DNA from: an uncultured Bdellovibrionales bacterium
Lineage (GTDB): Bacteria; Patescibacteriota; Minisyncoccia; Moranbacterales; UBA1568
DNA: 50,756 nt
Direction of reading: 5' to 3'
Assembly (NCBI GenBank): GCA_964385515.1
Contig: CAYLPD010000003.1
Coordinates: 1-50,756 of the forward strand
Shown here piece by piece: positions 4,351 to 18,924 of this stretch; positions within the stretch are counted from its first letter, which is position 1; each line of letters begins with the position of its first letter. Both the position numbers and the translations under genes were made by a program. The notes under the pieces were generated by a model that searched no databases, was not told where the DNA came from, and saw only the letters and a list, made by a program, of their open reading frames with translations.

Positions 4351-4372
4351 TCAGGTTTGCTTGCTACAAATT

Positions 4373-5803: not shown

Positions 5804-6014
5804 GTACTGAATAACTTTGTATTTTCGTTTATAACGGGGGTAAAAAACGTATTCTTATGTGGATAAATCAACAAAATGAGAAAATCCCTACAATTTCATC
5901 CACTATTTCTTAATTTATTTTTCGCTCTCCAAGCCGACTCTTCCCACTTTCCCACATATACACAACAGTAATAACAATAAATTTATATATAAACTCTTCT
6001 AAGAATTACTCCAT
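5804..6014. other. Candidate oriC core (dnaA-dnaN intergenic region)
   Basis: A perfect DnaA box TGTGGATAA (the reverse complement of TTATCCACA) lies at 5858-5866. Degenerate boxes lie at 5896-5904 (TCATCCACT) and 5948-5956 (TTTCCCACA). They are followed by a very AT-rich tract (about 5966-6010) suitable as an unwinding element. Confidence 0.6.
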
Positions 6015-7145
6015 ATGAAACTCTCATGCACTCAAGAAAATCTTCGGACAGCACTCTCAATTCTGGAAAGAATTGCTGGTAAACAAAGTTCGTTACCAAT
6101 TTTGAGTAATATATTACTTGAAACCGAAAAGGGACAATTGCATCTCTCTGCTACTAATCTCGAAATTGGTGTAATTACATCAATTGGAGCAAAAATAGAA
6201 GAAGATGGACGAGTAACTATCCCCGCCAAGCTTTTTATTAATTTTATTCAAAATCTAGCCCTTGATCAGGTGGTTAATATTGAACAGATTGGAACACAAA
6301 TTGTACTTGAAAGTGGTAATTATAAAGTGAAAATTAATGGTTTAGATGGAAAAGATTTCCCAATTATACCTAGACGTTCAAGTGGAGAGATATTTACACT
6401 TGAAGCAAATGGATTACGAAAAGGATTACAAAAGACTTTGTTTTGTGTATCGCTCAATCAAAGCCGGCCCGAACTTACAGGTGTTCTCTTTGGAATTACA
6501 GAGGGTGTTGTTTTTCTCGCGGCAACTGATAGTTTTCGACTTGCCGAATGGAAAATGACAGGGAAGGTGCAGGGTGATATTAGTGCTCTCGAATCGAGAC
6601 AATCATCAATTATTATCCCATCATCTACTCTGCAGGAAGTTCTTCGAGTAATATCTCAGGGTGCAGATGATGTAAATATTGCATTAGAGGAAAATCAAAT
6701 ATTTTTTGAGATCGGGAGTACGCGAATTGTTTCTCGTTTGATTAATGGAAAATACCCAGAATATCAAGCGATTATACCAAAGCAATTCTCAACTGAAATT
6801 AGCTTAAATCAAGCTGAATTTCAACGAGCGTTGAAAATTGCAACCTCATTTTCATCATATAGCGCAAGCGAGGTAGTCTTTCAATTTAATACGGAGGATG
6901 GGTGGCTTGAGATCAAGTCTCAATCCCAGGGAATTGGAGAGCAAGTTGCAAAAATAGCGTATGAGGGCGTGTTGTCAGCGCCGCTCCAGATTGTCTTTAA
7001 TCCACGCTATATTCTCGAGGGGACGGCTGCTCTCGCGGGAACTGAAATACGGCTTGCTCTAAATACATCATCAACGCCGGTAAAGATATTTTCTGAGGCA
7101 GAACCCGACGAGTACATATACATCGTGATGCCGATCAGAAAATAA
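6015..7145 (+). CDS. dnaN: DNA polymerase III beta sliding clamp
   Basis: 376 aa immediately after dnaA, with a clamp-like three-domain length and the N-terminus 'MKLSCTQENL...L..ILLE'. Confidence 0.93.
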   Translation: MKLSCTQENLRTALSILERIAGKQSSLPILSNILLETEKGQLHLSATNLEIGVITSIGAKIEEDGRVTIPAKLFINFIQNLALDQVVNIEQIGTQIVLESGNYKVKINGLDGKDFPIIPRRSSGEIFTLEANGLRKGLQKTLFCVSLNQSRPELTGVLFGITEGVVFLAATDSFRLAEWKMTGKVQGDISALESRQSSIIIPSSTLQEVLRVISQGADDVNIALEENQIFFEIGSTRIVSRLINGKYPEYQAIIPKQFSTEISLNQAEFQRALKIATSFSSYSASEVVFQFNTEDGWLEIKSQSQGIGEQVAKIAYEGVLSAPLQIVFNPRYILEGTAALAGTEIRLALNTSSTPVKIFSEAEPDEYIYIVMPIRK

Positions 7146-7199
7146 CGAAAACAAGCGTGGCGAGTAGATAGTTTTGACTCGGTAAAGAGTAGCTGTTCT

Positions 7200-7496
7200 A
7201 TGCGTTCTCTGAAGGAGTGTATTGGTAAGCGAAATGGTAGAACGACGGGGACACCTCTTGATGATAAGACGGTATTTTTTATGTTTCGGAAAATAATTAA
7301 AGAGGAATATGGAGCACGTGGTGTTGCTGAGTTGGAACCAATAGCGTTTCTTGAGGGAGTGCTTTCAGTGAAATCTCATAACCCGCTCTATTCAGGCGAA
7401 TTATGGATTCATCGGGAACAGATTATTACGCGAATGAACTCAGCCCTTGAACAGGAGGCTATTCAAGAGCTTCGGCTTGTCCGGTATGTTCCCTAA
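7200..7496 (+). CDS. DUF721/DciA-like small protein
   Basis: 98 aa downstream of dnaN. The pattern resembles DUF721 proteins that commonly follow dnaN. This is a recollection-based call. Confidence 0.5.
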   Translation: MRSLKECIGKRNGRTTGTPLDDKTVFFMFRKIIKEEYGARGVAELEPIAFLEGVLSVKSHNPLYSGELWIHREQIITRMNSALEQEAIQELRLVRYVP

Positions 7497-10105
7497 TACG
7501 CGACAGAAACGCTCCCACTCGCGCTTGTGGTATTTCCGTTTTTATCCTCAAGCGTAACCTTGATATCAAGCGTCGAATTGTTTTGGCTTTCTGGAACTGA
7601 GTAGGTCATCGAAAATGGTTTTTCATTTCGTTCCCCAATCTTATTTCCCCCGACTAAAAAAGTAACTTTAGAGACCCCGTATGGCGCCTCGACACCCGCA
7701 CTCAAGGTGAGAGTATTTGAAGTGATAGAGTTTGGAACATTTAGGCTGATTGAGGGTTGATATTTTTTGAAGTCATCTGCACTACATTCTTTCTTGGGTG
7801 GTTCCTCGGCAATGACATCTTTCTGTTTCTTGTACCATTCCTTCACGGATTTTTCCCAGTTTTTATACTGACTGTCATCTTCTGGATCATCAGGTTTTTC
7901 GCCCCTTGGGTTGGAGCGCTTTACGTAGTGAAGGATATCGTGGGGTTCTACAAAATCTTTTTTCTTTGCTTTTCCATCAGGACAATATTTATTCGCGATA
8001 CAGAATTTGTCTTCGTTGGGAATCTCACAGACCTTTAAATCTTCTTTCGCCTCTAATGTGCCGTCAAGCATTGGTTTATCAAGATCCTCCTTCTCATACT
8101 TTGGAAAGCGTTCCGTCGCGTAGTTGACAAGCGCTTTGTCGAGGAAAGCACGCCAGATGGGAGCTGCGACATTCACACCGTCAGCTCCTGTAACCATGGG
8201 ACTATTGTCATTGTTTCCAGCCCAAACGCCGACAGCGAGAGAGGGTGTGAATCCAATTGTCCAGCCGTCACGAAATTCATTGGTAGTTCCAGTTTTAGCG
8301 GCGACATCACGTTGGTCAAAACGGAGGGGGCTATTTTCTCCAAACACCGGTGCACGAAAACTATTGGTTGACATGATATGTTCAAGCATGGTCACGTATT
8401 TTTCCTCTACAACGCGTTCGCCGGGACCACCCGCGTACTCTTCTAAAGTTGTTCCCTTGGAATCCTCAATCTTCAGGATAGCTGCTAGAGGATGTTTGAC
8501 TCCGCCTGTTGCTAGGGTCGAGAACGCGTGGACATGGTCGAGAAGGTGGACTTCGCCGCCTCCCAAAACGAGTGAGAGTCCAAGGCGATCTGGATTGTCG
8601 AGGCCGACGATGCCAAGGCGCTTGGCCGTATCTATAGCCTCTTTCACACCAACGAGGTAGAGTGTTTTTACCGCGGGGATATTGAGAGATTGGGCAAGTG
8701 ACTCAGCTAGAGATAGCGGCCCACGAAACTTTCCATCGTAATTTTGTGGTTTGTAGCTTTTCCCATCTGCTGTATCAAAGTTAGTTTCGACATCGTATAT
8801 GAGTGTCTCGGGGATGTAGCCTTTGGTAAAGGCGGTTAAATAAACATAGGGCTTAAAAGAGGATCCTGGCTGTCGAGGTGCTGTTGTCACATTGAAGTTG
8901 GCTTCAAAAACACAGGTCTTCCCACTGATACAGTTGGCTGGTTCTGAGGCGCCGAAATAGTCTTTTGAGCCAACCATAGAGAGCAGCTGCCCCGTCTTTG
9001 GATCTATCGCGATGAGGGCTGCATTGGCAGCTTTCCAGCGTTTGTTTTTTTCGGCCCCCGTTCGGACTGCCTCTTCAGCAATCTGCTGTTTATCCCAGTC
9101 GAGAGTGGTTATCACACGATAGCCGCCTTCCTCGACAGCTCGATCACCATATTTTTCTTGAAGATAGTCCTTGATGTACATGACGAAATGCGGTGCCGCA
9201 AAAATATTTTTCTGAGGCATTATCTTTCCAAGCGTATCTGCGTTTATTGCCTCCTCGGCCTGCTCATCGGTGATGTAGCCAAGGCTTGCCATTTGCTTGA
9301 GTGCGTATGTTTGTCGCCCGGAGAGTGCTTCGGTATGAGAACCATAGGGAGAATAGAATGTTGTCGCCTGAGGAAGCGCTGCTAGGAGAGCCGCTTCATC
9401 AAGACCAAGTTCGCGGGCTGGCTTGCCGAAGTATGTTTGAGCAGCTGATTCGATACCGTATGCATTTGACCCATATGGAATTTCGTTCAGATACATCTCG
9501 AGAATCTCGTCCTTTGAATACTTTGTCTCGAGTTCGAGCGCGAGGATAACCTCTTTTATTTTTCGAGCAACCGATTTCTCATTTGTGAGGAGGGTGTTCT
9601 TCACCAATTGCTGAGTGATAGTGGAGCCACCCTGGGATTTGTCGAGGGTAACGATATCCCTCAAAACAGCACGCAGGATGGAAGAGAGTTTGATACCGAA
9701 GTGATGGTAGAAATCCTGATCTTCGAGGGAGATGGTGGCATATTTCACTACCTCAGGCATTTCAGAGAAGGGTATAACGGTGCGTTTTTCCTCGCCGTGC
9801 ACTTCGTACAAGAGGTGGGTGCCAGTACGATCATAAATTTTGGTTGATTCTGCCACAAAACGATCGCTGACATTTCCGGGACTGGGTAAATCCTTTGCAA
9901 TGTAGAGAAAAAGCCCAATGAGTGCAACGAGACCGAAACTACCTGCAACCGCTAACCCAAGCCAAATTTTCTTCCAGGGCCAGGGTTGTTTCGGTTTTGG
10001 GTTCATGCCGACTATTTCAATCGCTGGACGGCGACGAAAGCTCCGGTGGGAAAACAGTGATTTAGGCCTAGAATAAAGCATAAAGTGACTATATGTATGC
10101 CTCAT
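7493..10105 (-). CDS. Class A penicillin-binding protein (glycosyltransferase + transpeptidase, PBP1A-like)
   Basis: It has an N-terminal TM helix, GT51 motifs (EDQDFYHHFG, GGSTITQQL, RKIKE) and the transpeptidase motif SSFKP. There is also a roughly 150-aa C-terminal extension ending in an Ig-like beta-rich segment. The start is uncertain (10105, or the internal ATG at 10006). Confidence 0.9.
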   Translation of the reverse strand: MRHTYSHFMLYSRPKSLFSHRSFRRRPAIEIVGMNPKPKQPWPWKKIWLGLAVAGSFGLVALIGLFLYIAKDLPSPGNVSDRFVAESTKIYDRTGTHLLYEVHGEEKRTVIPFSEMPEVVKYATISLEDQDFYHHFGIKLSSILRAVLRDIVTLDKSQGGSTITQQLVKNTLLTNEKSVARKIKEVILALELETKYSKDEILEMYLNEIPYGSNAYGIESAAQTYFGKPARELGLDEAALLAALPQATTFYSPYGSHTEALSGRQTYALKQMASLGYITDEQAEEAINADTLGKIMPQKNIFAAPHFVMYIKDYLQEKYGDRAVEEGGYRVITTLDWDKQQIAEEAVRTGAEKNKRWKAANAALIAIDPKTGQLLSMVGSKDYFGASEPANCISGKTCVFEANFNVTTAPRQPGSSFKPYVYLTAFTKGYIPETLIYDVETNFDTADGKSYKPQNYDGKFRGPLSLAESLAQSLNIPAVKTLYLVGVKEAIDTAKRLGIVGLDNPDRLGLSLVLGGGEVHLLDHVHAFSTLATGGVKHPLAAILKIEDSKGTTLEEYAGGPGERVVEEKYVTMLEHIMSTNSFRAPVFGENSPLRFDQRDVAAKTGTTNEFRDGWTIGFTPSLAVGVWAGNNDNSPMVTGADGVNVAAPIWRAFLDKALVNYATERFPKYEKEDLDKPMLDGTLEAKEDLKVCEIPNEDKFCIANKYCPDGKAKKKDFVEPHDILHYVKRSNPRGEKPDDPEDDSQYKNWEKSVKEWYKKQKDVIAEEPPKKECSADDFKKYQPSISLNVPNSITSNTLTLSAGVEAPYGVSKVTFLVGGNKIGERNEKPFSMTYSVPESQNNSTLDIKVTLEDKNGNTTSASGSVSVAY

Positions 10106-10142
10106 TTATACCACGATATACCGCTCTCTCCAACAGTAGGGA

Positions 10143-11117
10143 TTAAGTTTGTAAACCAAAGTATTGACGCAGGATCTGTTCTGCAGGATCAAAATACGGA
10201 CGTTTGATCGACCCCTGGTGGAGCGAAAGATCTGGCCCCCCGTTTATCTCGATGATCACGCCGCCAGTTTTGATCAGTGGCAGGTTGATATCTTCGGTGA
10301 TGACATCAATGCCGGCAATATTCAGGTGAATAGCTCTTGTGGCCGCGAGAAAGAGTTCTACATTGATGGGGTGAATACGATCCGTCACGTCTACCGCATG
10401 CCCACCGTGTGAAATCGGCGCCGCACGGTAGAGGTTGATAGTCTCACCGGGCTCTGGGATCATTGAGAACGCGAGACCTTGTTCATTGAGGATACGGACG
10501 AGTTCGGGCTTTATTGGGATAGGCACCGTATTGCTCCCGGGGATAATCGAGTTATTGTGCTGATTGATGAGCAAGAGAATGGTATCACTCCCATTCCCCG
10601 TGAGCGTGGGAGGAATAAATTCAGCCGCCGCTATAATCTGATTTTCAAAAATAAGAATCCGGTACTCTTTACCTCGAATCTTTTTCTCAATGACAACATA
10701 TTGGAATTCTTTCTGAATCGTCTTGAAAGCGTTCCTTGCTTCTTCGATGGTTTGGATAGACGCGTGTACCCCTCTCCCGAGAGTGGAACCGAGTGGTTTC
10801 ATCAAGACATCACCCTGATGTTTGTTGTAAAACGCCTCAAGTTCTGGTAGAGAACTTACGATGAGTTGTTCAGTCGTGGGAATCCCATGGTGTCGAAGAA
10901 TCTCGTTTGTAGTCGCTTTGTCAGCTGCGATCTTCATCCCGATAAATGAAGTGGAAAGGATGGTCGCGCCGAGGGTAAAGAGTTCTCTCTGTCCATCAGA
11001 AATCCGATAAACGGAGCGTCGTTCTGGCGAAGATCCTTTTATCGAGGCGTAGGGTTTGAGACTGAGGCCGAGTCGTTTGGCAGCCTGAGCAAACCCGAAT
11101 TTTTTTGAGTGAGACAT
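10143..11117 (-). CDS. Stand-alone cyanophycin-synthetase-like ATP-grasp (G-domain-like) ligase
   Basis: 324 aa, counted from the ATG at 11117, which is preceded by AGGAG. The track ORF extends to 11228. The order of motifs matches the CphA ATP-grasp region: 'LMKPLGSTLGRGV', 'VIEKKIRGKEYRILIF', 'PPTLTGNGSDTI', 'ISHGGHAVDVTDRIHP', 'AGIDVITEDI', 'IIEINGGPD'. No Mur-ligase-like M domain is attached. Confidence 0.7.
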   Translation of the reverse strand: MSHSKKFGFAQAAKRLGLSLKPYASIKGSSPERRSVYRISDGQRELFTLGATILSTSFIGMKIAADKATTNEILRHHGIPTTEQLIVSSLPELEAFYNKHQGDVLMKPLGSTLGRGVHASIQTIEEARNAFKTIQKEFQYVVIEKKIRGKEYRILIFENQIIAAAEFIPPTLTGNGSDTILLLINQHNNSIIPGSNTVPIPIKPELVRILNEQGLAFSMIPEPGETINLYRAAPISHGGHAVDVTDRIHPINVELFLAATRAIHLNIAGIDVITEDINLPLIKTGGVIIEINGGPDLSLHQGSIKRPYFDPAEQILRQYFGLQT

Positions 11118-11140
11118 AGTTTGGCTCCTGACTAAGGCTG

Positions 11141-11162
11141 AAAAAAGCGCCACACTGGGCGC
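11141..11162 (-). terminator. Intrinsic terminator/attenuator hairpin between the DUF1704 gene and the CphA-like gene
   Basis: On the minus strand the sequence reads GCGCC-cagtgt-GGCGC followed by TTTTTT. It lies about 24 nt upstream of the 11117 start codon. Confidence 0.55.
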
Positions 11163-11254
11163 AAGAGAAAAAGAGCTTTTGACTTTAACGCCGGACGGGA
11201 AAGAGCAACAGCTAATGAGTTGTACCACAGAAACAATAAAGAGTGAAGACTAGA

Positions 11255-12640
11255 CTATTCCTTTTGGAGTGATGCAAGATCGGTGTCAGTAATGCCAAGC
11301 TCATCCAACACCCAGAGATGCCGCGGATTGCTCGGATCGTATTTCCCGATATTCCAGCGTTGCATCTCGGGCTCTTTCCGATGGAGCGTTTCCCAGACAG
11401 CGATATTGCCTTCGCGATAGATGATGTCCTTGGTGAAACAGGCCCCGGGAGTCTTGCAATCGGTCCCGCGAAAGGTGCGGACTGCACGGCCCCAGGCAGT
11501 GTTCGCTGCCTTCTTTTCTGCTTCGGGAGCATCTATTCCGCGCGCGAGGTTTTTGATGAAGTAGTAACGGAACAGGAGATCATAGGTCCCACGGAAATCC
11601 CGGGGATGCCCGTCGAGCCCTGACGCGAGGCTAATCGCGAAGTGTCCGTCAAAGCCCGAGTAGTCGTCAGCTTCGCCCGCGAGCGCCTGTTCCCGGAGCG
11701 TTGCGATGCCTTCTTCGCCACCTTCGTAACGATCAAGTCCGAGGCCGAGCAGGCGGAGTCTGGCCCGCTCGCCATTGAGCCGTCTTGCAGTGTGTGTGCC
11801 AATCTCATGAGCGATCAGACCTTTGAGTTCGACGGTCGGCATTTTCCGGTCCGGAGGAACTTGGACCGCTTTTCTCTCTTGGTTCACGCTGATCCCGGCC
11901 CGTTTCGGATCGATGACCGCGACCCAGCCATCGGCCGATAAGGACTGAAGTGCGGATTCAAACGATGCCCGGATCTCTTCATCAGTCAGTTTTTCAGGAG
12001 CGTCAGGGATATCCAGTATGTCGCCGAGATCACGCTCAGTTTGGCTCTTTACGGCAGGGAGCATCGATTTGTCCGGTCCGCTGATTGCCGAGGCGCCACT
12101 CACGTCGGGGAGATCATTGATGAGGTGGGAGATCTCCTGCTGAATGAGGGGACTCGGGTTTTGATCAGCGATCTGCTTGAGTTCCTGCCGAACTTGCCCC
12201 AGAGTGTATTCAAAGATTTCTTTTGAGGGTTTTCCGTAGATGAATTCTGAGTAGCGCCTGAATCGGCGCATATTGCCAGTCGCCGCCGCGAGGAGCAGGC
12301 GGTTCTCGGCGATCTTCTCGTTGAGTCGCCAGCGGTAGACGTTTTTTACCACTTCATTCTTCTCACTGGCGAGAATCTTTTCTTTCAGGTCGAGTAATTC
12401 GCCATCTTTGGCGAGGAGTGCTCCTTCTTCAAGTCGCGGATAGTCGAGATCGGGATTTTCCTTTCCGTCGGAAAGAAAGGCTTCTTTTTCTTTGGCGCGG
12501 GCAGTGCTATCGCCATCGAGATACTCGTATGCCTGAAAAGCCCCAATTTCTTCAAAACGGGGATACCACCTTCTATCGAGTGCCGACAGTTTGGTAGCGG
12601 ATTCTTTTCTCGGTTTTAGCTTGAGTGGTTGTTCGAACAT
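11255..12640 (-). CDS. DUF1704-family (MATCAP-like) HExxH metallopeptidase
   Basis: 461 aa. It carries 'AHEIGTHTARRLNG' (HExxH, nt 11792-11809) and, about 30 residues later, 'GGEEGIATLREQ' (a QEGLA-like Glu motif, nt 11702-11716). This is the layout I recall for DUF1704 'QEGLA motif' proteins. Confidence 0.65.
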   Translation of the reverse strand: MFEQPLKLKPRKESATKLSALDRRWYPRFEEIGAFQAYEYLDGDSTARAKEKEAFLSDGKENPDLDYPRLEEGALLAKDGELLDLKEKILASEKNEVVKNVYRWRLNEKIAENRLLLAAATGNMRRFRRYSEFIYGKPSKEIFEYTLGQVRQELKQIADQNPSPLIQQEISHLINDLPDVSGASAISGPDKSMLPAVKSQTERDLGDILDIPDAPEKLTDEEIRASFESALQSLSADGWVAVIDPKRAGISVNQERKAVQVPPDRKMPTVELKGLIAHEIGTHTARRLNGERARLRLLGLGLDRYEGGEEGIATLREQALAGEADDYSGFDGHFAISLASGLDGHPRDFRGTYDLLFRYYFIKNLARGIDAPEAEKKAANTAWGRAVRTFRGTDCKTPGACFTKDIIYREGNIAVWETLHRKEPEMQRWNIGKYDPSNPRHLWVLDELGITDTDLASLQKE

Positions 12641-13286
12641 CTCGGACTGAATCAGTAAGATCAGTATAGCGTATCAACTGGAAAGGGCGGATGAGTTTCT
12701 GAAAAGCTCCGCTTCGGAGAAAGGTGAGCTCTCCTTCGCGCTCCTGGTTGTAGGGATAGGTGCAGCGTTTGTCAAAATAGCCGGGATGAGTGACGAGCTC
12801 AGTGACGAGGAACGAACGCGAAGCGAGGAGTCGTTCTATGAGCACAGGGATTCGCTTTGGATGCCAGGAGACAAAGTGGTTTGGAGTGACTATGCCACTG
12901 CACAGTAAATGGGCGCGGTCAGTCGGGAGCCGTGACCGGATGGGAAGACCATAGCGCCGCGCTGCTCGGATGACCCGGTCGATATTGTCTGGTGTGACAT
13001 GCTTGTGCTGGTGTCCATCGAGGTAGGCGGGGAGTCTCCCAAAGCGTTTTTTGAATCGCTTAATTTGCGAAATGATCTCCCGGTAGGAAGATGAGCTTTC
13101 GAGTTCGAGGTGGAGACCGAGAGCAATATCGAGCGCGAGGAGTTCGGTTTTTCGGACATATTTCCGCTTGATCATGACGGAAATCCCGGTAATGATTCCT
13201 GCGCGTGCTACTTCAAGCACGCCTTGGTTGAACCGTGGGGACATCCCGTAGTCATCAGCGGTGATGATGAGTTCAGGACGAGACAT
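12573..13286 (-). CDS. YdjC/ChbG-family (carbohydrate) deacetylase
   Basis: 237 aa from the ATG at 13286, which is 1 nt after the upstream stop codon. The track ORF extends to 13493. The N-terminal 'LIITADDYGMS' metal-binding signature and 'LDGHQHKH' are typical of YdjC-like proteins. Confidence 0.75.
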   Translation of the reverse strand: MSRPELIITADDYGMSPRFNQGVLEVARAGIITGISVMIKRKYVRKTELLALDIALGLHLELESSSSYREIISQIKRFKKRFGRLPAYLDGHQHKHVTPDNIDRVIRAARRYGLPIRSRLPTDRAHLLCSGIVTPNHFVSWHPKRIPVLIERLLASRSFLVTELVTHPGYFDKRCTYPYNQEREGELTFLRSGAFQKLIRPFQLIRYTDLTDSVRDVRTTTQAKTEKRIRYQTVGTR

Positions 13287-13287
13287 C

Positions 13288-15180
13288 TTATTTCTTTTGG
13301 ACGGCGAACTTGAGCGCGCCGATGATCGCCTGGTAAAGTCTCCCAATGTGTGGTCGCTCTGATTCGTCCGGGTAGAGCCCCGGCATAGTATTGAGTTCGA
13401 CAATCCACGGTCGTCCGGTTGGATCAAACATGAGATCGATTGTATAAATCTTTGGCGAGAATTTTTCATAGTGAGACTGAACGGCATGAACAATAGGCCA
13501 GACCGAGTTGGGTATATCCTCTTCCGCGATCATTGTTTGTTTCCCGCCCTGGGCGACATTGGCCAAATAACCTCCGGCCCTTGGCGTGCGGTAATACGCA
13601 TATACTAGCGACTCATTGCAGTAGATGATTCGGAGATCATGGAGCCCTTTCATTACTCCTGGTATACCATTGCTTGAGTCGATGAATTCTTGGACGAGTA
13701 TTGGAAAAGCTACTCGTTCGAGTATTTCGGCCTTCTCAGCGATAAGAATTCCCTCGCCGCTGTTGCCGCGTTCCGGTTTAGCGACAACCAATGTATCCGG
13801 CAGTTGAGCGAGGATATTGATCAGATCCTCTCGAGAAGTGGCTCGGAAATACGGCTTGGCGAATTCTTTGAAGGCGCGACTAACTTGGAGTTTGCTGCCG
13901 GCGTGCAGGGAAAACGCAGGGTGATTGATCATCGGGTAGTGTTTGAGTAGGGCATCCTTGGCGGGTGTTGTCTCGGCGTTTACTGCCGCCTTGTCATAGA
14001 TAACATCAGGAGTAATAGAGTGGGCAAGTGTCCAGTTGTCTCCATCCCAATGCCAGGCCGCCCGAAACATACCGGTTGCCGCATCGTACCAGCGAGTCGA
14101 GCTTCGGTAGAGTGCTACACCTTCGCGGGCTGCGAGCTTAACAAAGTCGGTATATGCTTCACAATAGATGTCTTTTTCGAATGGCACTACCCCGTCATTT
14201 TCTTGGGGTGTAGAGATGATGACGGCAGTAATGGGATCAAGGAAGCGGCGCAGCTCTTCGAGCAATCGAGTATAGACGCGGCGCATTGTGGCATCTTCTT
14301 CGGGTGGAAAGAACATTCCAGGCATCGTGTTAAATTCGATAATCCAGGGGCGACCGGTTTCATCGAACATAACATCGATTGTATAGGTCTTCTGAGGAAA
14401 GCGCGCAAAGAGTGTCCGCGTGTCTTCGATGATGGGGGTAAGTACCTCAGGAAGTTCATCCGTTGGAATGATCCTCATACTGCCGCCCTGTGCGATATTG
14501 GCAAGGAACGACCCGTCCTTTGGTGTTCGGATATACGTGTAGACGAGTTCATCACCGATGAAGACCATACGGAAATCATGGTAGGTGTCAGTGATCCCGG
14601 GTATTCCATGGGAACTGTCGATAAACTCCTGGGTGATAACGGGAAATGTGAGAGTGAGAGATTTCGCTTCTTCTTTCGAAACAATATGAACACCCTGTCC
14701 GCCGCTTCCTACTATAGGTTTTATGACGAGCCGATCGCTGCTAAAGGTCTCTAGAAATTCAGCAAATTCTTTTGAGTCATCAATTTTTCGGTAGGGCTTG
14801 AAGTATTGTGGGAGTTGTCGACTGGTCTCGTACTTGTTGCTAGCAAATAAGGTGAAGGCGGGATCATCCATGAAACGGTAACGGGAAATGATGAGCGCGC
14901 GCGTTTTATCGAGAGCGGAACGTCCGTTGGTCTTATCATAAATAAGATCTGGCCTGACCGGTCCCGAGAGCTGCCACTTCCCCTCGACAAATTCCCAGGA
15001 GTCACGAAAAATATCGCGTTTGGCATCATACCAATCAATCGGTGCTCGGCAGAGATGGAGTCCGTGTGTTTCTCCAAGTGAGTAAAGCATTTCATAGCAG
15101 CGCTGATACTTGGGATCAGAAAACGGAATGTCTGGCCCCGCATTATGCGAAGTGTAGAGAATGAGAACGGTTTTTTTCAT
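13288..15180 (-). CDS. Internally duplicated (tandem) ATP-grasp amidoligase, RimK/YheCD/TTL-like
   Basis: 630 aa made of two homologous halves of about 315 aa each. Both halves carry 'KP..GS/NSG.G', 'QEFIDSS.GIPG', 'AN(I/V)AQGG' and '(I/V)E(F/L)NTMPG'. Confidence 0.75.
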   Translation of the reverse strand: MKKTVLILYTSHNAGPDIPFSDPKYQRCYEMLYSLGETHGLHLCRAPIDWYDAKRDIFRDSWEFVEGKWQLSGPVRPDLIYDKTNGRSALDKTRALIISRYRFMDDPAFTLFASNKYETSRQLPQYFKPYRKIDDSKEFAEFLETFSSDRLVIKPIVGSGGQGVHIVSKEEAKSLTLTFPVITQEFIDSSHGIPGITDTYHDFRMVFIGDELVYTYIRTPKDGSFLANIAQGGSMRIIPTDELPEVLTPIIEDTRTLFARFPQKTYTIDVMFDETGRPWIIEFNTMPGMFFPPEEDATMRRVYTRLLEELRRFLDPITAVIISTPQENDGVVPFEKDIYCEAYTDFVKLAAREGVALYRSSTRWYDAATGMFRAAWHWDGDNWTLAHSITPDVIYDKAAVNAETTPAKDALLKHYPMINHPAFSLHAGSKLQVSRAFKEFAKPYFRATSREDLINILAQLPDTLVVAKPERGNSGEGILIAEKAEILERVAFPILVQEFIDSSNGIPGVMKGLHDLRIIYCNESLVYAYYRTPRAGGYLANVAQGGKQTMIAEEDIPNSVWPIVHAVQSHYEKFSPKIYTIDLMFDPTGRPWIVELNTMPGLYPDESERPHIGRLYQAIIGALKFAVQKK

Positions 15181-15182
15181 GA

Positions 15183-16604
15183 CTATTTCTTACTGACGTC
15201 GACAAGAAACATCCCGAGGTTACGGCGGCCGATGATGGCTCGATACTGGAGTGACGAACGGTCCACCACTGTCGGACTAGCAGAGATCTCTTGACCATCC
15301 ATGACGAGCGTTAGTCCGATTTTCGGTCGCATGCTGACACCGTTTGATGCGTAAACGAAAACAATGTCTTTCAGGTCGGGTATATCCTGGCGCAAATGAG
15401 TTCTTTTTAGAGATTCTCTGAGCTTTTCTCCTGTTTCCTGATTTTCCGGAAATACGGGATTGATTGTATCAAAATACTGGAGTGCTTCCCCAAATCCGAG
15501 TTCCTCGGCAAGCGCTCGATCGATCGCCGAGGAATCCGCTCCCGTGTCGATTTTCGCCTCGATCTCGATTTCCTTGCCGTCTTTGCCAATAAACTTTACT
15601 TTTTCGACAGAGCCGATGACGCGTTTTCCCGAGAGTCCCTCAATGTTTTCTTCAATCTCGCCACCAAACAGATTCATACCAACACGGACGCCGTGATCGA
15701 CACTTTTAATTTTTACACCCTTTACCCGCTCGAGGCGTTCTTTCAAGCCGGCCATATTTGCAAGTTGGATCGAGAGGCCGGGCCGAGCGTTCAGCTCGAG
15801 GATAACCGGGCCAGCGTCACGGTCGATGGCGATATCAGCACCGAGAAATCCGAGCCCAGACACTTCCTGGGCCTTCACGGCCATCGTGAGGATTTCTTTC
15901 CAGCGGGGGATCTTGATACCGGATAACAGGAGACGGGTCTTCGGGGCATATTCGATGATGCGTCCTTTGCCGACGATCGCGCTTGTCGTCGTGCCATTCG
16001 CCATGTCGATACCGACGCCGATTGCGCCCTGATGCAGGTTGGCTTTGCCGCCCGAATCCTGGGTCGGGAGACGCAACATTGCCATCACCGGGACACGATT
16101 GAAGACGATGACACGAATATCAGGAATCCCTTTCCATGTGTAGGGTTTGAAGAGTTTAAGGAGTTTGAGTCGCTCTTCAAAAAAGGCAATATCAGGTTTA
16201 TTGGAAAGCGAAAATGTACCGTCAAGGATATTCTGAACATGGTTTTTCAGGTCAGCAATGGTGATTAAGCTTCCGTCAGCCTTCACCCAAGCATCGTCCC
16301 GACCTTTCTTTTTTGCATACACCACCACTATCCCTTCACCGCCGAATCCGCGATTCGGTTTCAGGGCAAAACTGCTGGGGAGCATTTGCCAATCGAAATT
16401 TTCAAGCGATTCGGAAGAGCTGATTTTTGCAACGAGCTTTGAGACGGGAAGCCCATTTTTTTTCAACGCAACTTTACATTTTAACTTTTGATCCGCAAAG
16501 CGCCGACCTTGGGCATGATTATACCGCCGTACATAGTCGAGGTTGCGGGCATTCATCCCGAGGAGTGTGCGGCTGTGCGCGTACCAGGAAAGCATAGAGG
16601 GCAA
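15183..16604 (-). CDS. Alpha-L-glutamate-ligase-like (RimK-related) ATP-grasp fused to a retropepsin-like aspartic protease domain
   Basis: 473 aa. The N-terminus has 'LGMNARNLDYV', 'LKPNRGFGGEGI', 'ANLHQGA' and 'ILELNARPG'. The C-terminus (residues about 325-473) has 'KIDTGADSS' (DTGA at nt 15537-15548) and 'AIIGRRNL...FLVD', as in the RimB/'ATP-dependent zinc protease' retropepsin-like family. Confidence 0.8.
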   Translation of the reverse strand: MPSMLSWYAHSRTLLGMNARNLDYVRRYNHAQGRRFADQKLKCKVALKKNGLPVSKLVAKISSSESLENFDWQMLPSSFALKPNRGFGGEGIVVVYAKKKGRDDAWVKADGSLITIADLKNHVQNILDGTFSLSNKPDIAFFEERLKLLKLFKPYTWKGIPDIRVIVFNRVPVMAMLRLPTQDSGGKANLHQGAIGVGIDMANGTTTSAIVGKGRIIEYAPKTRLLLSGIKIPRWKEILTMAVKAQEVSGLGFLGADIAIDRDAGPVILELNARPGLSIQLANMAGLKERLERVKGVKIKSVDHGVRVGMNLFGGEIEENIEGLSGKRVIGSVEKVKFIGKDGKEIEIEAKIDTGADSSAIDRALAEELGFGEALQYFDTINPVFPENQETGEKLRESLKRTHLRQDIPDLKDIVFVYASNGVSMRPKIGLTLVMDGQEISASPTVVDRSSLQYRAIIGRRNLGMFLVDVSKK

Positions 16605-16607
16605 ACG

Positions 16608-17267
16608 CTACGGTTTTTGCTTCAAGATATGACGGAAGCGGAAAAGTTCCACGAGCCGCAACCCTGACCACTTGCCAAGACCGATATTGATGAAGAAAGT
16701 TGCAAAAATTGCCCAGGGATACTGGAGGAAGAAATCACGGAGTGCTGGCCACCCGATGGCGAAATAACCGATCATGGAGATGATGAGAGTCTCACCTGCC
16801 AGGATGAGAGCTGTCTTTGCACCTTGTTCTATCTGGGTCGCAATAAACTTTTCAGCCAGAGTGACGAGGATGAGAAGGGGGAAGATATCGACCGCAGCCA
16901 AGCCAGTTCGATGGAGTGTTGCTCCGAGCGCGAGGATGCTGAGTACGGTGAGCGATATAATAGAAAGTGTAATCGCGACGCGGGGCAGATACAGGAGCCG
17001 GAAAGGGCGCAGGAGGTAACGTGAGAGAATGCCCATTCCAATGACGGCAAAGAAGATAGCAATTCCATATTTTAATCCCTTTTCACCAAAGGCGAGGAAT
17101 GCAAAGGTGATGATGGATGGTGTGTAAATTCCAAAGGCCTTGATTCCGACGATCTGCCTGAAAAACGCAACGAGCGTCGCGATAACCGGCAGCATGAGCA
17201 AGAGATACACAGTCTCAACCGGTACGCCGGCAGCAACAAAAAACTGAATAATGGGATGATAGTTCAT
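16608..17267 (-). CDS. 7TM membrane protein (7TM_transglut-like, lacking the transglutaminase module)
   Basis: 219-aa polytopic ORF. 'RQIVGIKAFGIYTPSII' resembles the conserved first-loop motif of the 7TM proteins that partner RimK-like ligases. There is a 3-nt gap to the ligase-protease gene. Confidence 0.6.
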   Translation of the reverse strand: MNYHPIIQFFVAAGVPVETVYLLLMLPVIATLVAFFRQIVGIKAFGIYTPSIITFAFLAFGEKGLKYGIAIFFAVIGMGILSRYLLRPFRLLYLPRVAITLSIISLTVLSILALGATLHRTGLAAVDIFPLLILVTLAEKFIATQIEQGAKTALILAGETLIISMIGYFAIGWPALRDFFLQYPWAIFATFFINIGLGKWSGLRLVELFRFRHILKQKP

Positions 17268-17276
17268 ACTCCTCTA

Positions 17277-17765
17277 TTATACTCTCCGTTTTGCGAATGA
17301 TGCATGATGGATATGGCAGAGTGCGATCGCGAGCGCATCGGCAACATCATCGGGCTTGGGGATTTTGTTGAGATGAAGAATTTCTTTTGCCATACGTTGC
17401 ACCTGTTGCTTGTCAGCCTTGCCGTAGCCAGTGAGCGCCTGTTTCACCTGGAGCGGGGTGTAACCGGCAATACTAAGCCCGAAGTCAGCCAAAGTCAAGA
17501 GGAGAGCACCACGTGATTGGGCGACGGAGATGACCGTTTTCTGGTTGCTGAAGAAAAAAAGTTCTTCGAGGGCGGCTTCGTCGGGTTGATACTGCTTCAC
17601 GATCTCCGCTACGTCATCACGGATTTCTTGGAGTCGTTGCTCAAGCGCGAGATCTTTGCTCGTTGAAATATGCCCGTAGGCGATCGCCGCAGGGTTGCCT
17701 TTTACACTTTCGACGATTGCCCACCCTACTGTCGCGGTGCCAGGATCAATGCCGAGGATACGCAT
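17277..17765 (-). CDS. ruvC: Holliday junction resolvase RuvC
   Basis: 'MRILGIDPGTATVGWAIV' is the canonical RuvC N-terminus. The track ORF (to 17831) adds a 22-aa hydrophobic extension that is unlikely to be real. Confidence 0.9.
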   Translation of the reverse strand: MRILGIDPGTATVGWAIVESVKGNPAAIAYGHISTSKDLALEQRLQEIRDDVAEIVKQYQPDEAALEELFFFSNQKTVISVAQSRGALLLTLADFGLSIAGYTPLQVKQALTGYGKADKQQVQRMAKEILHLNKIPKPDDVADALAIALCHIHHASFAKRRV

Positions 17766-17858
17766 AATTGGAGGAGAATTGAGAACGAAGAAGAGTGAAT
17801 ATAGAATAAGCCGAATACTTTTTCTTGTCATTCCCGCGTAGGCGAGAATCTGGGATAT

Positions 17859-18650
17859 TTATTCGCTACCGACCCCAGTAATTCGGGTGGGGGTATCGTA
17901 CTTGCCTTCGAGGGATTTCCAGAGGAGTTCGAAGGTTTCGGCGAGCGCCTCGGCAAATTTTGGTGATTCGATGATGAGGGTCTGGGCACTCTCGATGAGG
18001 CAGATGCGGACAAACTGGTCACCGCAGGATTCGATCGAACATTTGGCGCTGTAGAGGTCTGCCGGCATAAATTTGGCCGTGATGCTGCCCTTTACCGGTT
18101 CGAGGAATTTCGAGAAGGGATCAAGCGAGGGATTATCGACCGTAAGACCGCGGACTTTTGGCCCGTGTTTGGCCTTGTATTCGTTCCACTCGAGAAAGAC
18201 CTTCATGACTTCCGGCGAGGCATCTTCGGCGGAGGCAAAGAACCCGACGATTTCCTTGTCGTGGAGCTCTTTCTGTTTGTATCGATAGGCCTGGCGCAGC
18301 CCGTCGATCCCTTCGAAATACAGGATACTTGGCTTTTCGGCGGTACTTTTTTGGAACGACTTGAGTTCTGGCAGGATTTGTTTCGCGGCTTTCAACTTTT
18401 CTTCCCGCTCCTCGATGAACGATTCTGGCGATTTGGCGATGTAGCGGCGCTTGTCTTCGCCCGGCACATGGACGATGAGGCCTTTTCCGACCAGCTCCTC
18501 GGCGATCACATAGGCGGTCGGGCGCTTGAGCTCGGCCTTTTTGGCGATCTGATAGGGGGTAGCGGGGCCAAGCTGAAGCAAGGCGAGATAGACTCGCGCC
18601 TCCTTCTCACTCAATCCGAGGTTTTTCAGTGGTTCAACAAGGTGGTCCAT
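17859..18650 (-). CDS. TrmB-family winged-helix transcriptional regulator (paralog 1)
   Basis: It has the N-terminal 'LGLSEKEARVYLALLQLGPATPYQIAKKAELKRPTAYVIAEELVGKGLI' TrmB HTH and a C-terminal sensor-like domain. Confidence 0.75.
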   Translation of the reverse strand: MDHLVEPLKNLGLSEKEARVYLALLQLGPATPYQIAKKAELKRPTAYVIAEELVGKGLIVHVPGEDKRRYIAKSPESFIEEREEKLKAAKQILPELKSFQKSTAEKPSILYFEGIDGLRQAYRYKQKELHDKEIVGFFASAEDASPEVMKVFLEWNEYKAKHGPKVRGLTVDNPSLDPFSKFLEPVKGSITAKFMPADLYSAKCSIESCGDQFVRICLIESAQTLIIESPKFAEALAETFELLWKSLEGKYDTPTRITGVGSE

Positions 18651-18788
18651 ACGCTCAGGATACTCTACTTTGATTATATAGTCAATACTATTGACGACTA
18701 TATATCTTATTTACCATATATTGTTTTATATAAAGCAAATATATGGGTAAAAAGAGGGGCATTGTTGACATATATTTAGACGGTATTA

Positions 18789-18817
18789 TTGACACATTGA
18801 CGATTTTGGAATATACT
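18789..18817 (+). promoter_or_regulatory. Sigma-70-like promoter for the 18925 gene
   Basis: TTGACA (18789-18794), 17-nt spacer, TATACT (18812-18817). Confidence 0.5.
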
Positions 18818-18924
18818 ACGGAGTCAAGTTGAGAGGCAGTAATGCTAAAACAACTTGAATTAGTTCTTTGAGAAATCCGCCACTACTGGCGACCGCACCT
18901 CGGGCACTGGGGTAGGAGACTGCA

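What the first reader, a model, noticed from the sequence alone, without database searches (positions are those of the whole stretch)
11255..12640. DUF1704/MATCAP-like metallopeptidase next to TTL/RimK-like ligases: a possible prokaryotic 'add-and-remove C-terminal residue' pair
Seen: an HExxH motif (AHEIGTH, nt 11792-11809) is followed about 30 residues later by GGEEGIATLREQ, a QEGLA-like third-ligand motif. Established, as I recall the literature: DUF1704 is the family that contains vertebrate KIAA0895L/MATCAP, the tubulin-detyrosinating carboxypeptidase. The enzyme that re-adds the tyrosine (TTL) is an ATP-grasp ligase. Inference: the gene sits in one operon with three to four ATP-grasp ligase modules. 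It may therefore be the trimming or editing carboxypeptidase for the peptide those ligases add, giving a ligase/carboxypeptidase cycle analogous to tubulin tyrosination. Bacterial DUF1704 proteins are essentially uncharacterised.
Basis: partly seen in the sequence, partly recalled or inferred. Interest (0 to 1): 0.7.

Follow-up and report, generated by a model that had tools for sequence, protein, structure and literature searches.

The report
MATCAP-family carboxypeptidase beside ATP-grasp ligases
A bacterial relative of the enzyme that clips the last residue off tubulin sits in one gene cluster with several peptide-building ligases, and this pairing recurs across very different bacteria, so the two probably act as an add-and-remove pair, although no experiment has shown this.

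Summary
The ORF at 11255-12640 (minus strand, 461 aa) is a DUF1704/MATCAP-family protein: Pfam PF08014 scores 73 bits against a cut-off of 27. The zinc motif is HEIGTH, which is HExxxH and not HExxH. An EEG third-ligand motif lies 25 residues downstream, and both are invariant in 34 homologues. The window comes from a Candidate Phyla Radiation (CPR) bacterium resembling Moranbacteria.

The gene lies in a co-directional cluster: a 7TM protein, an RloC-like ATP-grasp fused to a retropepsin, a tandem RimK-like ATP-grasp, YdjC, DUF1704, a cyanophycin-synthetase-G-domain-like ATP-grasp, then PBP1A.

The link to ATP-grasp genes is not an accident of synteny:
- In 66 CPR genome loci, 35 have an ATP-grasp gene within four genes. 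This is an 11-fold local enrichment, seen in at least eight different gene arrangements.
- In Saccharibacteria, bona fide RimK sits beside a RimB-like retropepsin next to the DUF1704 gene.
- In the canonical QEGLA branch, about 88% of 67 metagenomic loci have a GshB-like ATP-grasp immediately downstream.

Carboxypeptidase activity and trimming of a ligase-made tail remain inference. Structural superposition on MATCAP was inconclusive. I rate this a new variant of known ligase/peptidase systems, of moderate to high interest.

The parts
11255..12640 (-). DUF1704/MATCAP-family (PF08014) predicted zinc metallocarboxypeptidase, 461 aa. It has no signal peptide and no hydrophobic N-terminus. A helical N-terminal half (about residues 26-205) precedes the catalytic half.
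   Evidence: Pfam gives 73.4 bits (gathering score 27). TIGR02421 gives only 57.6 bits (cut-off 338.65). The AlphaFold2 model has pLDDT 90.3.
11792..11809 (-). HEIGTH, an HExxxH zinc-binding and catalytic motif (H278, E279, H283).
   Evidence: It is invariant in 34 CPR homologues, in canonical QEGLA proteins and in human MATCAP.
11708..11716 (-). EEG motif (E309, E310, G311). This is the predicted third metal ligand and corresponds to QEGLA in the canonical branch and EEGLA in MATCAP.
   Evidence: PMC10499314 describes the EEG motif next to HExxxH in KIAA0895L.
10143..11228 (-). Stand-alone ATP-grasp ligase resembling the G domain of cyanophycin synthetase. The true start is probably the ATG at 11117, giving about 324 aa.
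   Evidence: NF010623 cyanophycin synthetase, 219 bits over profile positions 182-453 of 871, far below the 877 cut-off; orthologues of 330-342 aa in L001 and L002.
12573..13286 (-). YdjC-family predicted carbohydrate deacetylase. The listed ORF runs to 13493, but the conserved start MSRPELII is at 13286. Its 3' end overlaps the DUF1704 start by 68 nt.
   Evidence: The overlap is also seen in L001 and L002.
13288..15180 (-). Tandem fusion of two RimK-like ATP-grasp modules, 630 aa.
   Evidence: RimK 74.7 bits in two stretches, plus a TTL cross-hit of 45 bits.. The two halves are separate genes of about 320 aa in L033, L036 and L038.
15183..16604 (-). RloC-like ATP-grasp (ATPgrasp_ST / TIGR02291-like) fused to a C-terminal retropepsin-like domain that carries DTGA.
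   Evidence: PF14397 229.9 bits, with Zn_protease and Asp_protease_2 hits at residues 347-472. TIGR02291 287 bits (cut-off 314) and RloA3 28 bits.
16608..17267 (-). 7TM membrane protein that matches only the C-terminal 7TM part of RloB. It has no transglutaminase domain.
   Evidence: PF14402 100 bits over profile positions 55-247. RloB 78 bits over profile positions 313-507 of 508.
17277..17831 (-). RuvC, the upstream co-directional flank. It is conserved beside the 7TM gene in Moranbacteria-like loci and is probably synteny only.
7493..10105 (-). Class A penicillin-binding protein (PBP1A-like), the downstream co-directional flank. It is conserved in Moranbacteria-like loci only.

Best explanation
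The gene encodes an active, cytoplasmic zinc metallopeptidase of the MATCAP/DUF1704 gluzincin family. The metal ligands would be H278, H283 and E310, with E279 as the general base. It works as the exopeptidase partner of the co-encoded ATP-grasp alpha-amino-acid ligases.

Those ligases are of the RimK, RloC and cyanophycin-synthetase-G-domain kinds. As established for RimK and the CphA G domain, such enzymes activate a C-terminal alpha-carboxylate and add residues, typically Glu or Asp, to peptides or protein tails. The most likely role of the DUF1704 enzyme is to remove C-terminal residues from that ligase-made, probably acidic, peptide or tail. It would act alongside the retropepsin-like endopeptidase domain fused to the RloC-like ligase. 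Together they would set the length or turnover of the product, which the 7TM partner may handle at the membrane.

Shown here: family membership, intact catalytic motifs, the cluster anatomy, and a conserved association between DUF1704 and ATP-grasp genes. Inferred: carboxypeptidase activity, the identity of the substrate, and an antagonistic (eraser) rather than a maturing role.
For: Family and active site:
- PF08014 scores 73 bits against a cut-off of 27, and all 34 homologues hit it.
- A profile of the homologues finds human MATCAP structures 7z5g/7z6s (E = 1e-4). The alignment covers HEIGTH, EEG and RG.TD..PG.F.KD..Y..G.
- The same residues are invariant across CPR, canonical and human sequences.
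- The AlphaFold2 model has pLDDT 90. Its best fold matches are M32 metallocarboxypeptidases (probability 0.99) and ACE.

Gene context in CPR genomes:
- 35 of 66 loci have an ATP-grasp gene within four genes. Among loci with at least four genes on both sides the figure is 28 of 46.
- ATP-grasp genes make up 67 of 459 genes at offsets 1-4, against 9 of 580 at offsets 5-12 (odds ratio 10.8, Fisher p = 1.5e-16).
- The association survives rearrangement. The arrangements include divergent, convergent and directly adjacent genes, as well as clusters interrupted by GT1, GNAT, LytR, YdjC or Mur-ligase genes.
- In Saccharibacteria the neighbour passes NCBI's RimK equivalog cut-off (343.8 against 331) and sits with a RimB-like retropepsin.

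Gene context in the canonical QEGLA branch:
- A GshB-like ATP-grasp (NF009110, 448 bits against a cut-off of 408) lies directly downstream on the same strand in 59 of 67 evaluable metagenomic loci. It lies within two genes in about 66 of 67.

Literature:
- KIAA0895L/KIAA0895 remove C-terminal Tyr and Glu and deglutamylate tubulin (PMC10499314).
- RloA and RimB cleave poly-Glu, and deleting rloB or rloC rescues rloA mutants (PMC12239564).
- In Photobacterium damselae the QEGLA gene (27-fold), the adjacent 'GshB' gene (38-fold) and rimK (52-fold) are induced together at low salinity (PMC10308900).
Against: - No biochemical data exist for any bacterial member.
- About half of the CPR loci have no ATP-grasp gene within 10 kb, so the enzyme can exist without a linked ligase.
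- The fold search did not return MATCAP among the top 50. TM-scores to M32 were low (0.34) and E-values weak (2e-3). The truncated catalytic half modelled poorly (pLDDT 74) and gave only insignificant M1 hits.
- The ligase partner differs between lineages (RloC-like, RimK, CphA-like, GshB-like), so the substrate may differ too, or may be a small metabolite rather than a protein tail.
- The cluster already carries a retropepsin peptidase, so a second 'eraser' is not obviously needed.
- Loci sharing an arrangement within a lineage, for example the Moranbacteria-like loci, are not independent, which inflates the Fisher test.
Confidence: 0.55

Rival explanations
1. The peptidase is biosynthetic rather than antagonistic. 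It would process a precursor, for example by removing a blocking C-terminal residue to expose the acceptor carboxylate. Alternatively it would generate primers or release and mature the final product, so that the ligases can act.
For: - The conserved order DUF1704 then ATP-grasp, with translational coupling, in the canonical branch fits a linear pathway.
- The frequent upstream FGase-family amidohydrolase suggests a stepwise small-molecule pathway.
- The cluster already has a retropepsin for degradation.
Against: - Gene context cannot tell the order of reactions.
- The only characterised relatives (MATCAP/TMCP) are erasers of C-terminal residues.
- No precursor-peptide gene was seen, and the largest intergenic gap in the window cluster is at most 137 nt.
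Confidence: 0.2
2. The system works on small metabolites, namely glutathione-like, NAGGN-like or other di- and oligopeptide osmolytes or storage peptides, and not on protein tails. DUF1704 would be the hydrolase that recycles them. The analogy with tubulin tyrosination would then be only formal.
For: - The canonical partner is GshB-like.
- The window's last ligase resembles cyanophycin synthetase, N-acetylglutaminylglutamine synthetase and GshAB.
- L036 and the Saccharibacteria loci carry CphA-like or Mur-ligase genes.
- The QEGLA gene, the adjacent 'GshB' gene and rimK are induced at low salinity, and the Rlo system has a hypo-osmotic phenotype.
Against: - In Saccharibacteria the neighbour is a bona fide S6-modifying RimK equivalog, although RimK also makes free poly-Glu according to PMC12239564.
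- The fold search favours enzymes that act on oligopeptides, but it cannot tell free peptides from protein tails.
Confidence: 0.2
3. The enzyme is a cell-wall peptidase, for example acting on peptidoglycan stem-peptide precursors or muropeptides. On this view its link to the ligases reflects a shared role in the envelope.
For: - PBP1A lies immediately downstream in the window and in 14 Moranbacteria-like loci.
- YdjC, GT1, LytR-CpsA-Psr, GNAT and Mur-ligase genes occur in the clusters.
- The Pfam family name ATPgrasp_ST stands for 'sugar-transfer associated'.
Against: - The protein has no signal peptide or transmembrane segment.
- The PBP1A neighbourhood is confined to one lineage and is absent from Saccharibacteria and canonical loci.
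- The family-wide constant is the ATP-grasp gene, not an envelope gene.
Confidence: 0.07
4. It is a housekeeping peptidase with no functional relation to its neighbours, and the clustering is inherited synteny.
For: - Roughly half of the CPR loci lack a nearby ATP-grasp gene.
- RuvC and PBP1A are also conserved neighbours in one lineage without an obvious functional link.
Against: - The association persists through at least eight different arrangements.
- It holds in two subfamilies that share only about 20-30 bits of pairwise similarity, each with a different kind of ATP-grasp partner.
- The local enrichment is 11-fold.
Confidence: 0.05

Closest known systems
Vertebrate MATCAP1/TMCP1 (KIAA0895L) and TMCP2 (KIAA0895) with the ATP-grasp ligases TTL/TTLL
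   Same: - It belongs to the same Pfam family, PF08014.
- It has the same HExxxH plus EEG metal site, and shares the RG.TD..PG.CF.KD..Y..G motif.
- As in the tubulin cycle, a carboxypeptidase is paired with an ATP-grasp ligase that extends a C-terminus.
   Different: - There is no tubulin and no microtubule-binding region.
- The protein carries a CPR-specific helical N-terminal half of about 200 aa.
- The partners are RimK/RloC/CphA-G-like, not TTL proper.
- The genes are operonic.
- Neither activity nor substrate has been tested, and the fold search did not retrieve 7z5g.
[quoted passage not shown]
   Same: It belongs to the same Pfam family and has the same catalytic motifs. It is likewise tightly linked to an ATP-grasp gene.
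   Different: - The window protein scores 57.6 bits against the 338.65 cut-off.
- It has EEGIA instead of QEGLA.
- It has an insert (TDxxxPGxCF) that the canonical branch lacks.
- Its ligase partners and neighbouring genes are different.
RimK-RimB (ribosomal protein S6 poly-glutamylation and its removal)
   Same: An ATP-grasp alpha-L-glutamate ligase sits beside a peptidase that removes the added Glu. In Saccharibacteria the DUF1704 gene lies right next to a RimK equivalog and a RimB-like retropepsin.
   Different: The known eraser is a retropepsin endopeptidase. DUF1704 has not been described as part of this system. The window's own ligases fall below the RimK family cut-off (71.7 against 143.4).
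RloABC of Pseudomonas aeruginosa (PMC12239564)
   Same: It has a 7TM protein of the RloB type, followed by an ATPgrasp_ST/TIGR02291-type ligase, plus a retropepsin.
   Different: - The retropepsin is fused to the C-terminus of the ligase and is not secreted.
- The 7TM protein lacks the inactive transglutaminase domain.
- Three further ATP-grasp modules, YdjC and DUF1704 are added.
- All three matches are below the NCBIfam cut-offs.
M32 (Taq-type) metallocarboxypeptidases and ACE (M2)
   Same: These are the best structural matches of the full-length model. They are helical two-lobe gluzincins that act on peptide C-termini.
   Different: They use HExxH rather than HExxxH. There is no sequence similarity detectable by Pfam. 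TM-scores are low, at about 0.3.

Membership tests
Pfam PF08014 MATCAP (formerly DUF1704) | A profile HMM score above the curated gathering score. | tested here: met
   73.4 bits against 27, E = 2.2e-20. All 34 homologues match. The match covers only part of the profile: the best stretch is profile positions 108-219 of 365.
Pfam PF08014 MATCAP (formerly DUF1704) | An HExxxH zinc motif, with a downstream Glu in an (E/Q)EG(L/I)A motif as third ligand. | tested here: met
   HEIGTH at residues 278-283 and EEGIA at 309-313. Both are invariant in alignment A1 and align to human MATCAP.
Pfam PF08014 MATCAP (formerly DUF1704) | A gluzincin fold that superposes on the MATCAP crystal structure (7z5g). 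| tested here: inconclusive
   The full model (pLDDT 90) matches the gluzincin carboxypeptidases M32 and M2 best (probability 0.99, TM 0.34). 7z5g is not in the top 50. The truncated model gives only insignificant M1 hits.
Pfam PF08014 MATCAP (formerly DUF1704) | Metallocarboxypeptidase activity, meaning removal of C-terminal residues. | not testable with these tools
   This is known only for the vertebrate members (PMC10499314).
NCBIfam TIGR02421 QEGLA (hypothetical equivalog) | A score above the 338.65-bit cut-off and a perfectly conserved QEGLA motif. | tested here: not met
   57.6 bits, and the motif is EEGIA. The protein belongs to a separate, CPR-centred subfamily.
RloABC system | RloC: an ATP-grasp of the TIGR02291 type. 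| tested here: inconclusive
   287.1 bits against a cut-off of 314.2. Pfam ATPgrasp_ST gives 229.9 bits over its full length.
RloABC system | [quoted passage not shown] | tested here: not met
   Only the 7TM part is present: 219 aa, matching profile positions 313-507 of 508, 78 bits against 900.
RloABC system | RloA: a separate, secreted retropepsin with a signal peptide. | tested here: not met
   The retropepsin-like domain (DTGA) is fused to the C-terminus of the ligase. It scores 28 bits against 210.
RimK family (TIGR00768 / S6--L-glutamate ligase) | A score above the family cut-off for the window's own ligases. | tested here: not met
   The tandem ligase scores 71.7 against 143.4 and the CphA-like ligase 38.5. 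By contrast, the Saccharibacteria neighbour in L007 passes the cut-off (343.8 against 331).
Cyanophycin synthetase CphA | N, G (ATP-grasp) and M (Mur-ligase-like) domains in one protein. | tested here: not met
   Only the G-domain region (profile positions 182-453 of 871) is present in the window, at 219 bits against 877. A full-length 853-aa CphA-like gene is present in L036.
Tubulin-tyrosine ligase family (PF03133) | A full-length TTL domain match as the best family. | tested here: not met
   The TTL hit is 45 bits over only profile positions 227-268 of 292 in the tandem ligase, and RimK scores higher.

The most novel reading that the evidence does not exclude
DUF1704/MATCAP enzymes and ATP-grasp C-terminal ligases may form an ancient, operon-encoded writer/eraser module in bacteria. 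The module would reversibly build acidic (Glu/Asp) tails or free poly-amino-acid chains, possibly to buffer glutamate or charge during hypo-osmotic stress. The eukaryotic tubulin tail cycle (TTL/TTLL with MATCAP/TMCP) would descend from such a bacterial pair. The CPR-type subfamily would be the closest bacterial relative of MATCAP, because it shares the EEG and TDxxxPGxCF motifs that the proteobacterial QEGLA branch lacks.
Probability: 0.2. Interest if true: 0.85.

Novelty: new variant of a known kind. Interest (0 to 1): 0.6.

Why it matters
- The bacterial branch of the MATCAP family holds 1,708 clusters at 50% identity with E <= 1e-3. It has no assigned function.
- A near-obligate pairing with ATP-grasp ligases gives a concrete, testable hypothesis: a C-terminal exopeptidase that acts on ligase-made peptides.
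- It adds a second, unrecognised peptidase to the RimK/RimB and Rlo systems. [quoted passage not shown]
- It suggests that the logic of the tubulin tyrosination/glutamylation cycle existed in bacteria before eukaryotes.
- For CPR bacteria, which have very small genomes, keeping a cluster with four ATP-grasp modules and two peptidases next to PBP1A points to an important but unknown peptide product.

Tried and rejected
- **Fold search with the full model.** It gave M32 and ACE but not MATCAP.
- **Second model of the catalytic half only.** It had lower confidence (pLDDT 74), and its fold search gave only insignificant leukotriene-A4-hydrolase/M1 hits. The direct superposition on MATCAP therefore remains open.
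- **tblastn against 72,556 plasmids.** No match, so no annotated proteobacterial context came from that route.
- **The look-up of encoding contigs with the window protein.** The protein is not on record.
- **Iyer et al. 2009 (PMC3268129, PubMed 20023723).** The paper is not held, so I could not check whether it already describes the DUF1704 context.
- **Literature searches for DUF1704, QEGLA, and RimK together with MATCAP.** These found no paper linking bacterial DUF1704 to ligases.
- **Promoter and terminator scan of 7000-19500.** Counts equal the shuffled expectation, so it says nothing about operon boundaries.
- **Relaxed Pfam search at E <= 10.** No second family appeared, so no other known domain explains the N-terminal half.
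- **First greedy ORF picker on the GC-rich metagenomic loci.** It hid true ATP-grasp genes behind shadow ORFs and under-counted adjacency at 46 of 67. A six-frame HMM search corrected this.
- **Considered and rejected: a peptidoglycan carboxypeptidase.** The protein has no signal peptide, and the PBP1A neighbourhood is confined to one lineage.
- **Considered and rejected: pure synteny.** The association survives rearrangement and holds in two subfamilies.
Full report
**1. The observation**

The ORF at 11255-12640 on the minus strand (461 aa, ATG start) is real. The motif, however, is HExxxH and not HExxH. The tubulin carboxypeptidase paper notes that KIAA0895L carries exactly this extended motif, next to an 'EEG' motif that supplies the third metal ligand (PMC10499314). 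In the window, gaa gaa ggc (E309, E310, G311) lies at 11716-11708, 25 residues after H283.

Pfam assigns the protein to PF08014 (MATCAP, formerly DUF1704) with E = 2.2e-20 and 73.4 bits, against a gathering score of 27. No other family matches even at E <= 10. NCBIfam TIGR02421 (the QEGLA motif protein) matches at only 57.6 bits against a cut-off of 338.65. The protein therefore belongs to the Pfam family but not to the canonical QEGLA equivalog.

**2. Origin and family**

The closest homologues, at 71-92% identity, come from Candidatus Moranbacteria/Moraniibacteriota. At about 50% identity the family runs through Saccharibacteria, Jacksonbacteria, Magasanikbacteria and other Patescibacteria. 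NCBI already names some of them 'tyrosine/phenylalanine carboxypeptidase domain-containing protein' or 'DUF1704 domain-containing protein'. An exhaustive HMMER scan found 1,708 clusters at 50% identity with E <= 1e-3.

In an alignment of 34 homologues, H278, E279, H283, E310 and G311 are invariant, together with many Arg and Lys residues. All 34 sequences hit PF08014. A profile of this alignment finds the human MATCAP crystal structures 7z5g/7z5h (E = 1e-4) and 7z6s. The alignment covers HEIGTH, EEG and the motif RG.TD..PG.F.KD..Y..G. A direct phmmer search with that human fragment hits both CPR-type and canonical bacterial proteins.

**3. Structure**

AlphaFold2 with the 34-sequence alignment gives a confident model (mean pLDDT 90.3, pTM 0.88). 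It has a helical N-terminal half (about residues 26-205). This is followed by a small sheet (240-261), the HExxxH helix (269-291) and the EEG helix (306-321).

Foldseek against the PDB ranks M32 metallocarboxypeptidases first (5giv, E = 2e-3, probability 0.99, TM 0.34), then angiotensin-converting enzymes. All of these are gluzincins that act at peptide C-termini. MATCAP itself was not among the top 50.

A second model of residues 206-461 alone was weaker (pLDDT 74), which suggests the N-terminal half packs on the catalytic half. It gave only insignificant M1 hits. The gluzincin assignment is therefore supported mainly by sequence, and the requested superposition on MATCAP remains inconclusive.

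**4. The cluster in the window**

All genes lie on the minus strand. Gaps are 1-9 nt, or the genes overlap, except where noted.

| Coordinates | Gene |
|---|---|
| 17831-17277 | RuvC |
| 17267-16608 | 7TM protein matching only the membrane part of RloB (PF14402, 100 bits) |
| 16604-15183 | ATPgrasp_ST/TIGR02291-type ligase (PF14397, 230 bits; TIGR02291, 287 against 314) fused to a C-terminal retropepsin-like domain with DTGA |
| 15180-13288 | Tandem of two RimK-like ATP-grasp modules |
| 13286-12573 | YdjC-family protein; its 3' end overlaps the DUF1704 start by 68 nt |
| 12640-11255 | DUF1704 |
| probably 11117-10143 | ATP-grasp matching the G domain of cyanophycin synthetase (219 bits over profile positions 182-453 of 871) |
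| 10105-7493 | PBP1A |

The TTL Pfam hit is a short cross-hit, and the ligases are best described as RimK/RloC/CphA-G-like. A consensus scan for promoters and terminators found nothing above the shuffled expectation.

**5. Is the association with ligases real? CPR genomes**

A scan of one genome per GTDB species returned 68 loci. I called ORFs, clustered the neighbours and detected ATP-grasp and retropepsin domains with locally built HMMs.

- 35 of 66 loci with a DUF1704 ORF have an ATP-grasp gene within four genes. Among loci with at least four genes on both sides the figure is 28 of 46.
- 28 loci also have a retropepsin domain nearby.
- ATP-grasp genes make up 67 of 459 genes at offsets 1-4 but 9 of 580 at offsets 5-12 (odds ratio 10.8, p = 1.5e-16). 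Loci from related lineages are not independent, so this p-value is only indicative.

More telling is that the link survives rearrangement:
- The Moranbacteria-type array runs 7TM, RloC-retropepsin, RimK-like ligase(s), optional YdjC/GT1/GNAT genes, DUF1704, PBP1A.
- L014 has 7TM, RloC-like ligase and DUF1704 directly in a row.
- L043 and L065 have DUF1704 convergent with the RloC-like ligase and 7TM genes.
- L061 has a RimK-like ligase, a CphA-like ligase and DUF1704.
- L030 and L050 have an ATP-grasp, a LytR gene and DUF1704.
- L036 has five ligase genes, including an 853-aa CphA-like protein with Mur-ligase domains.
- Saccharibacteria show two arrangements. In one, DUF1704 is divergent from a retropepsin-ATP-grasp fusion and RimK. 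In the other the order is DUF1704, an unknown 166-aa gene, a Mur ligase, a RimB-like retropepsin and RimK.

**6. Is the association real? The canonical QEGLA branch**

I scanned metagenome contigs for HE.GTH, a gap of 20-30 codons, then QEGLA (120 loci). These proteins match PF08014 over its full length (270-281 bits) and TIGR02421 at 300-312 bits.

A gene of about 348 aa with the GSH-S_N and GSH-S_ATP domains (NF009110 'glutathione synthetase' subfamily, 448 bits against a cut-off of 408) follows immediately on the same strand. A first count gave 46 of 67 evaluable loci. A six-frame HMM search then showed that 16 of the 17 apparent exceptions also contain the ligase, hidden by shadow ORFs in GC-rich DNA. 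The corrected figures are about 59 of 67 directly downstream and about 66 of 67 within two genes.

An FGase-family amidohydrolase (PF05013) often lies upstream. The DUF1704 proteins in this set share a median of 42% identity, and locus GC content ranges from 31% to 74%.

Independent support comes from Photobacterium damselae. The QEGLA gene A0J47_RS17025 (27.5-fold), the gene with the next locus tag, annotated GshB (A0J47_RS17020, 38-fold), and rimK (52-fold) are all induced at low salinity (PMC10308900).

**7. Mechanism**

Established knowledge, named precisely:
- RimK and the G domain of cyanophycin synthetase are ATP-grasp enzymes that extend a peptide at its C-terminal alpha-carboxylate.
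- RimB and RloA are retropepsins that cleave poly-Glu. Deleting rloB or rloC suppresses the defects of rloA1-3 mutants, which implies that RloBC make something RloA must remove (PMC12239564).
- The vertebrate family members remove C-terminal Tyr and Glu and deglutamylate tubulin (PMC10499314).

Putting this together with the intact active site, the lack of any signal peptide and the family-wide ligase linkage, the best-supported explanation is as follows. The protein is a cytoplasmic zinc exopeptidase that removes C-terminal residues from the peptide or tail built by the neighbouring ligases, working alongside the retropepsin endopeptidase.

What is shown: family membership, motif conservation, cluster anatomy and the association. 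What is inferred: carboxypeptidase activity, an acidic substrate, and an eraser rather than a maturation role. I put 0.55 on the whole statement. I put more, about 0.8-0.9, on 'active MATCAP-family metallopeptidase functionally coupled to ATP-grasp ligases'.

**8. Rivals**

- A maturation or priming role (0.2).
- A small-metabolite or osmolyte pathway rather than protein tails (0.2). This overlaps the main idea but weakens the tubulin analogy.
- A cell-wall peptidase (0.07). The PBP1A, YdjC, GT1 and LytR neighbours speak for it, while the cytoplasmic location and the lineage-restricted neighbourhood speak against it.
- Mere synteny (0.05).

**9. Comparison with known systems, and novelty**

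The protein is a member of PF08014. It is not a member of TIGR02421, and the window's ligases are not RimK, CphA or TTL proper. The 7TM, RloC and retropepsin genes form a variant of RloABC: the retropepsin is fused and not secreted, and there is no transglutaminase domain.

In the literature I could search, no paper links bacterial DUF1704 to ligases. The one paper most likely to have done so, Iyer et al. 2009, could not be read. I therefore rate the finding as a new variant of known ligase/peptidase systems, with interest 0.6. The association is strong and opens a large uncharacterised family to direct testing, but the function is still inferred.

Noticed in passing
window 15183-16604 (-): The RloC-like ATP-grasp carries a C-terminal retropepsin-like domain with an intact DTGA motif. 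In Pseudomonas the homologous peptidase RloA is a separate, secreted protein. The fusion implies that here the endopeptidase acts in the cytoplasm on the ligase's own product. The same ~470-aa gene recurs across the CPR loci, and retropepsin-domain hits accompany DUF1704 in 28 of them.
   Followed up: partly
window 16608-17267 (-): The 7TM protein matches only the membrane half of RloB (profile positions 313-507 of 508). It lacks the periplasmic inactive transglutaminase domain that defines RloB.
   Followed up: partly
window 13288-15180 (-); L033, L036, L038: The 630-aa tandem ATP-grasp is a fusion of two RimK-like genes. These are separate ORFs of about 320 aa in other Moranbacteria-like loci.
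   Followed up: partly
window 11255-12640 (-), residues 388-411; alignment: The CPR-type proteins share EEG and the insert RG-TDxxxPGxCFxKD with human MATCAP. Canonical proteobacterial QEGLA proteins have QEG and lack the insert. This hints that eukaryotic MATCAP is closer to the CPR-type branch. No phylogeny was made.
   Followed up: partly
L139:2107-5892, L133, L122, L089 and many other loci of L069-L188: There is a conserved triad in the canonical branch: an FGase-family amidohydrolase (PF05013), then DUF1704, then a GshB-like ATP-grasp. Many of the DUF1704 ORFs there are 610-680 aa, with an N-terminal extension of about 270-290 aa that has no Pfam match.
   Followed up: partly
L034:5940-10647, L058, L037, L045; L036:5874-8432: Saccharibacteria loci place a Mur-ligase-domain gene and an unknown 166-aa gene between DUF1704 and a RimB-like/RimK pair. 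L036 has a full 853-aa cyanophycin-synthetase-like gene (ATP-grasp plus Mur ligase) two genes upstream of DUF1704. This suggests a cyanophycin-like or poly-amino-acid product in some lineages.
   Followed up: partly
window 12573-12640; L001, L002: The 3' end of the YdjC gene overlaps the DUF1704 start by 68 nt. The overlaps are 62 nt in L001 and 74 nt in L002. The overlap is conserved and suggests translational coupling.
   Followed up: no
window 4361-7145 (+) and GC skew profile: dnaA-like (480 aa) and dnaN-like (376 aa) genes lie just upstream of the cluster. The GC skew changes sign near position 6000, so the window probably spans the replication origin.
   Followed up: no
L002, L008, L014, L017, L039, L042, L050, L051, L066: Several MAG records carrying CPR-type DUF1704 loci are titled Gammaproteobacteria, Bdellovibrionales or Micavibrio. 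Their DUF1704 proteins, and in several the neighbouring genes too, match the Patescibacteria type, so these taxonomic labels look unreliable.
   Followed up: no
L009:8956-9945: A DUF3541 protein (330 aa) lies between a RimK-like ligase and DUF1704 in a Paceibacterota locus. It is another uncharacterised family drawn into this neighbourhood.
   Followed up: no
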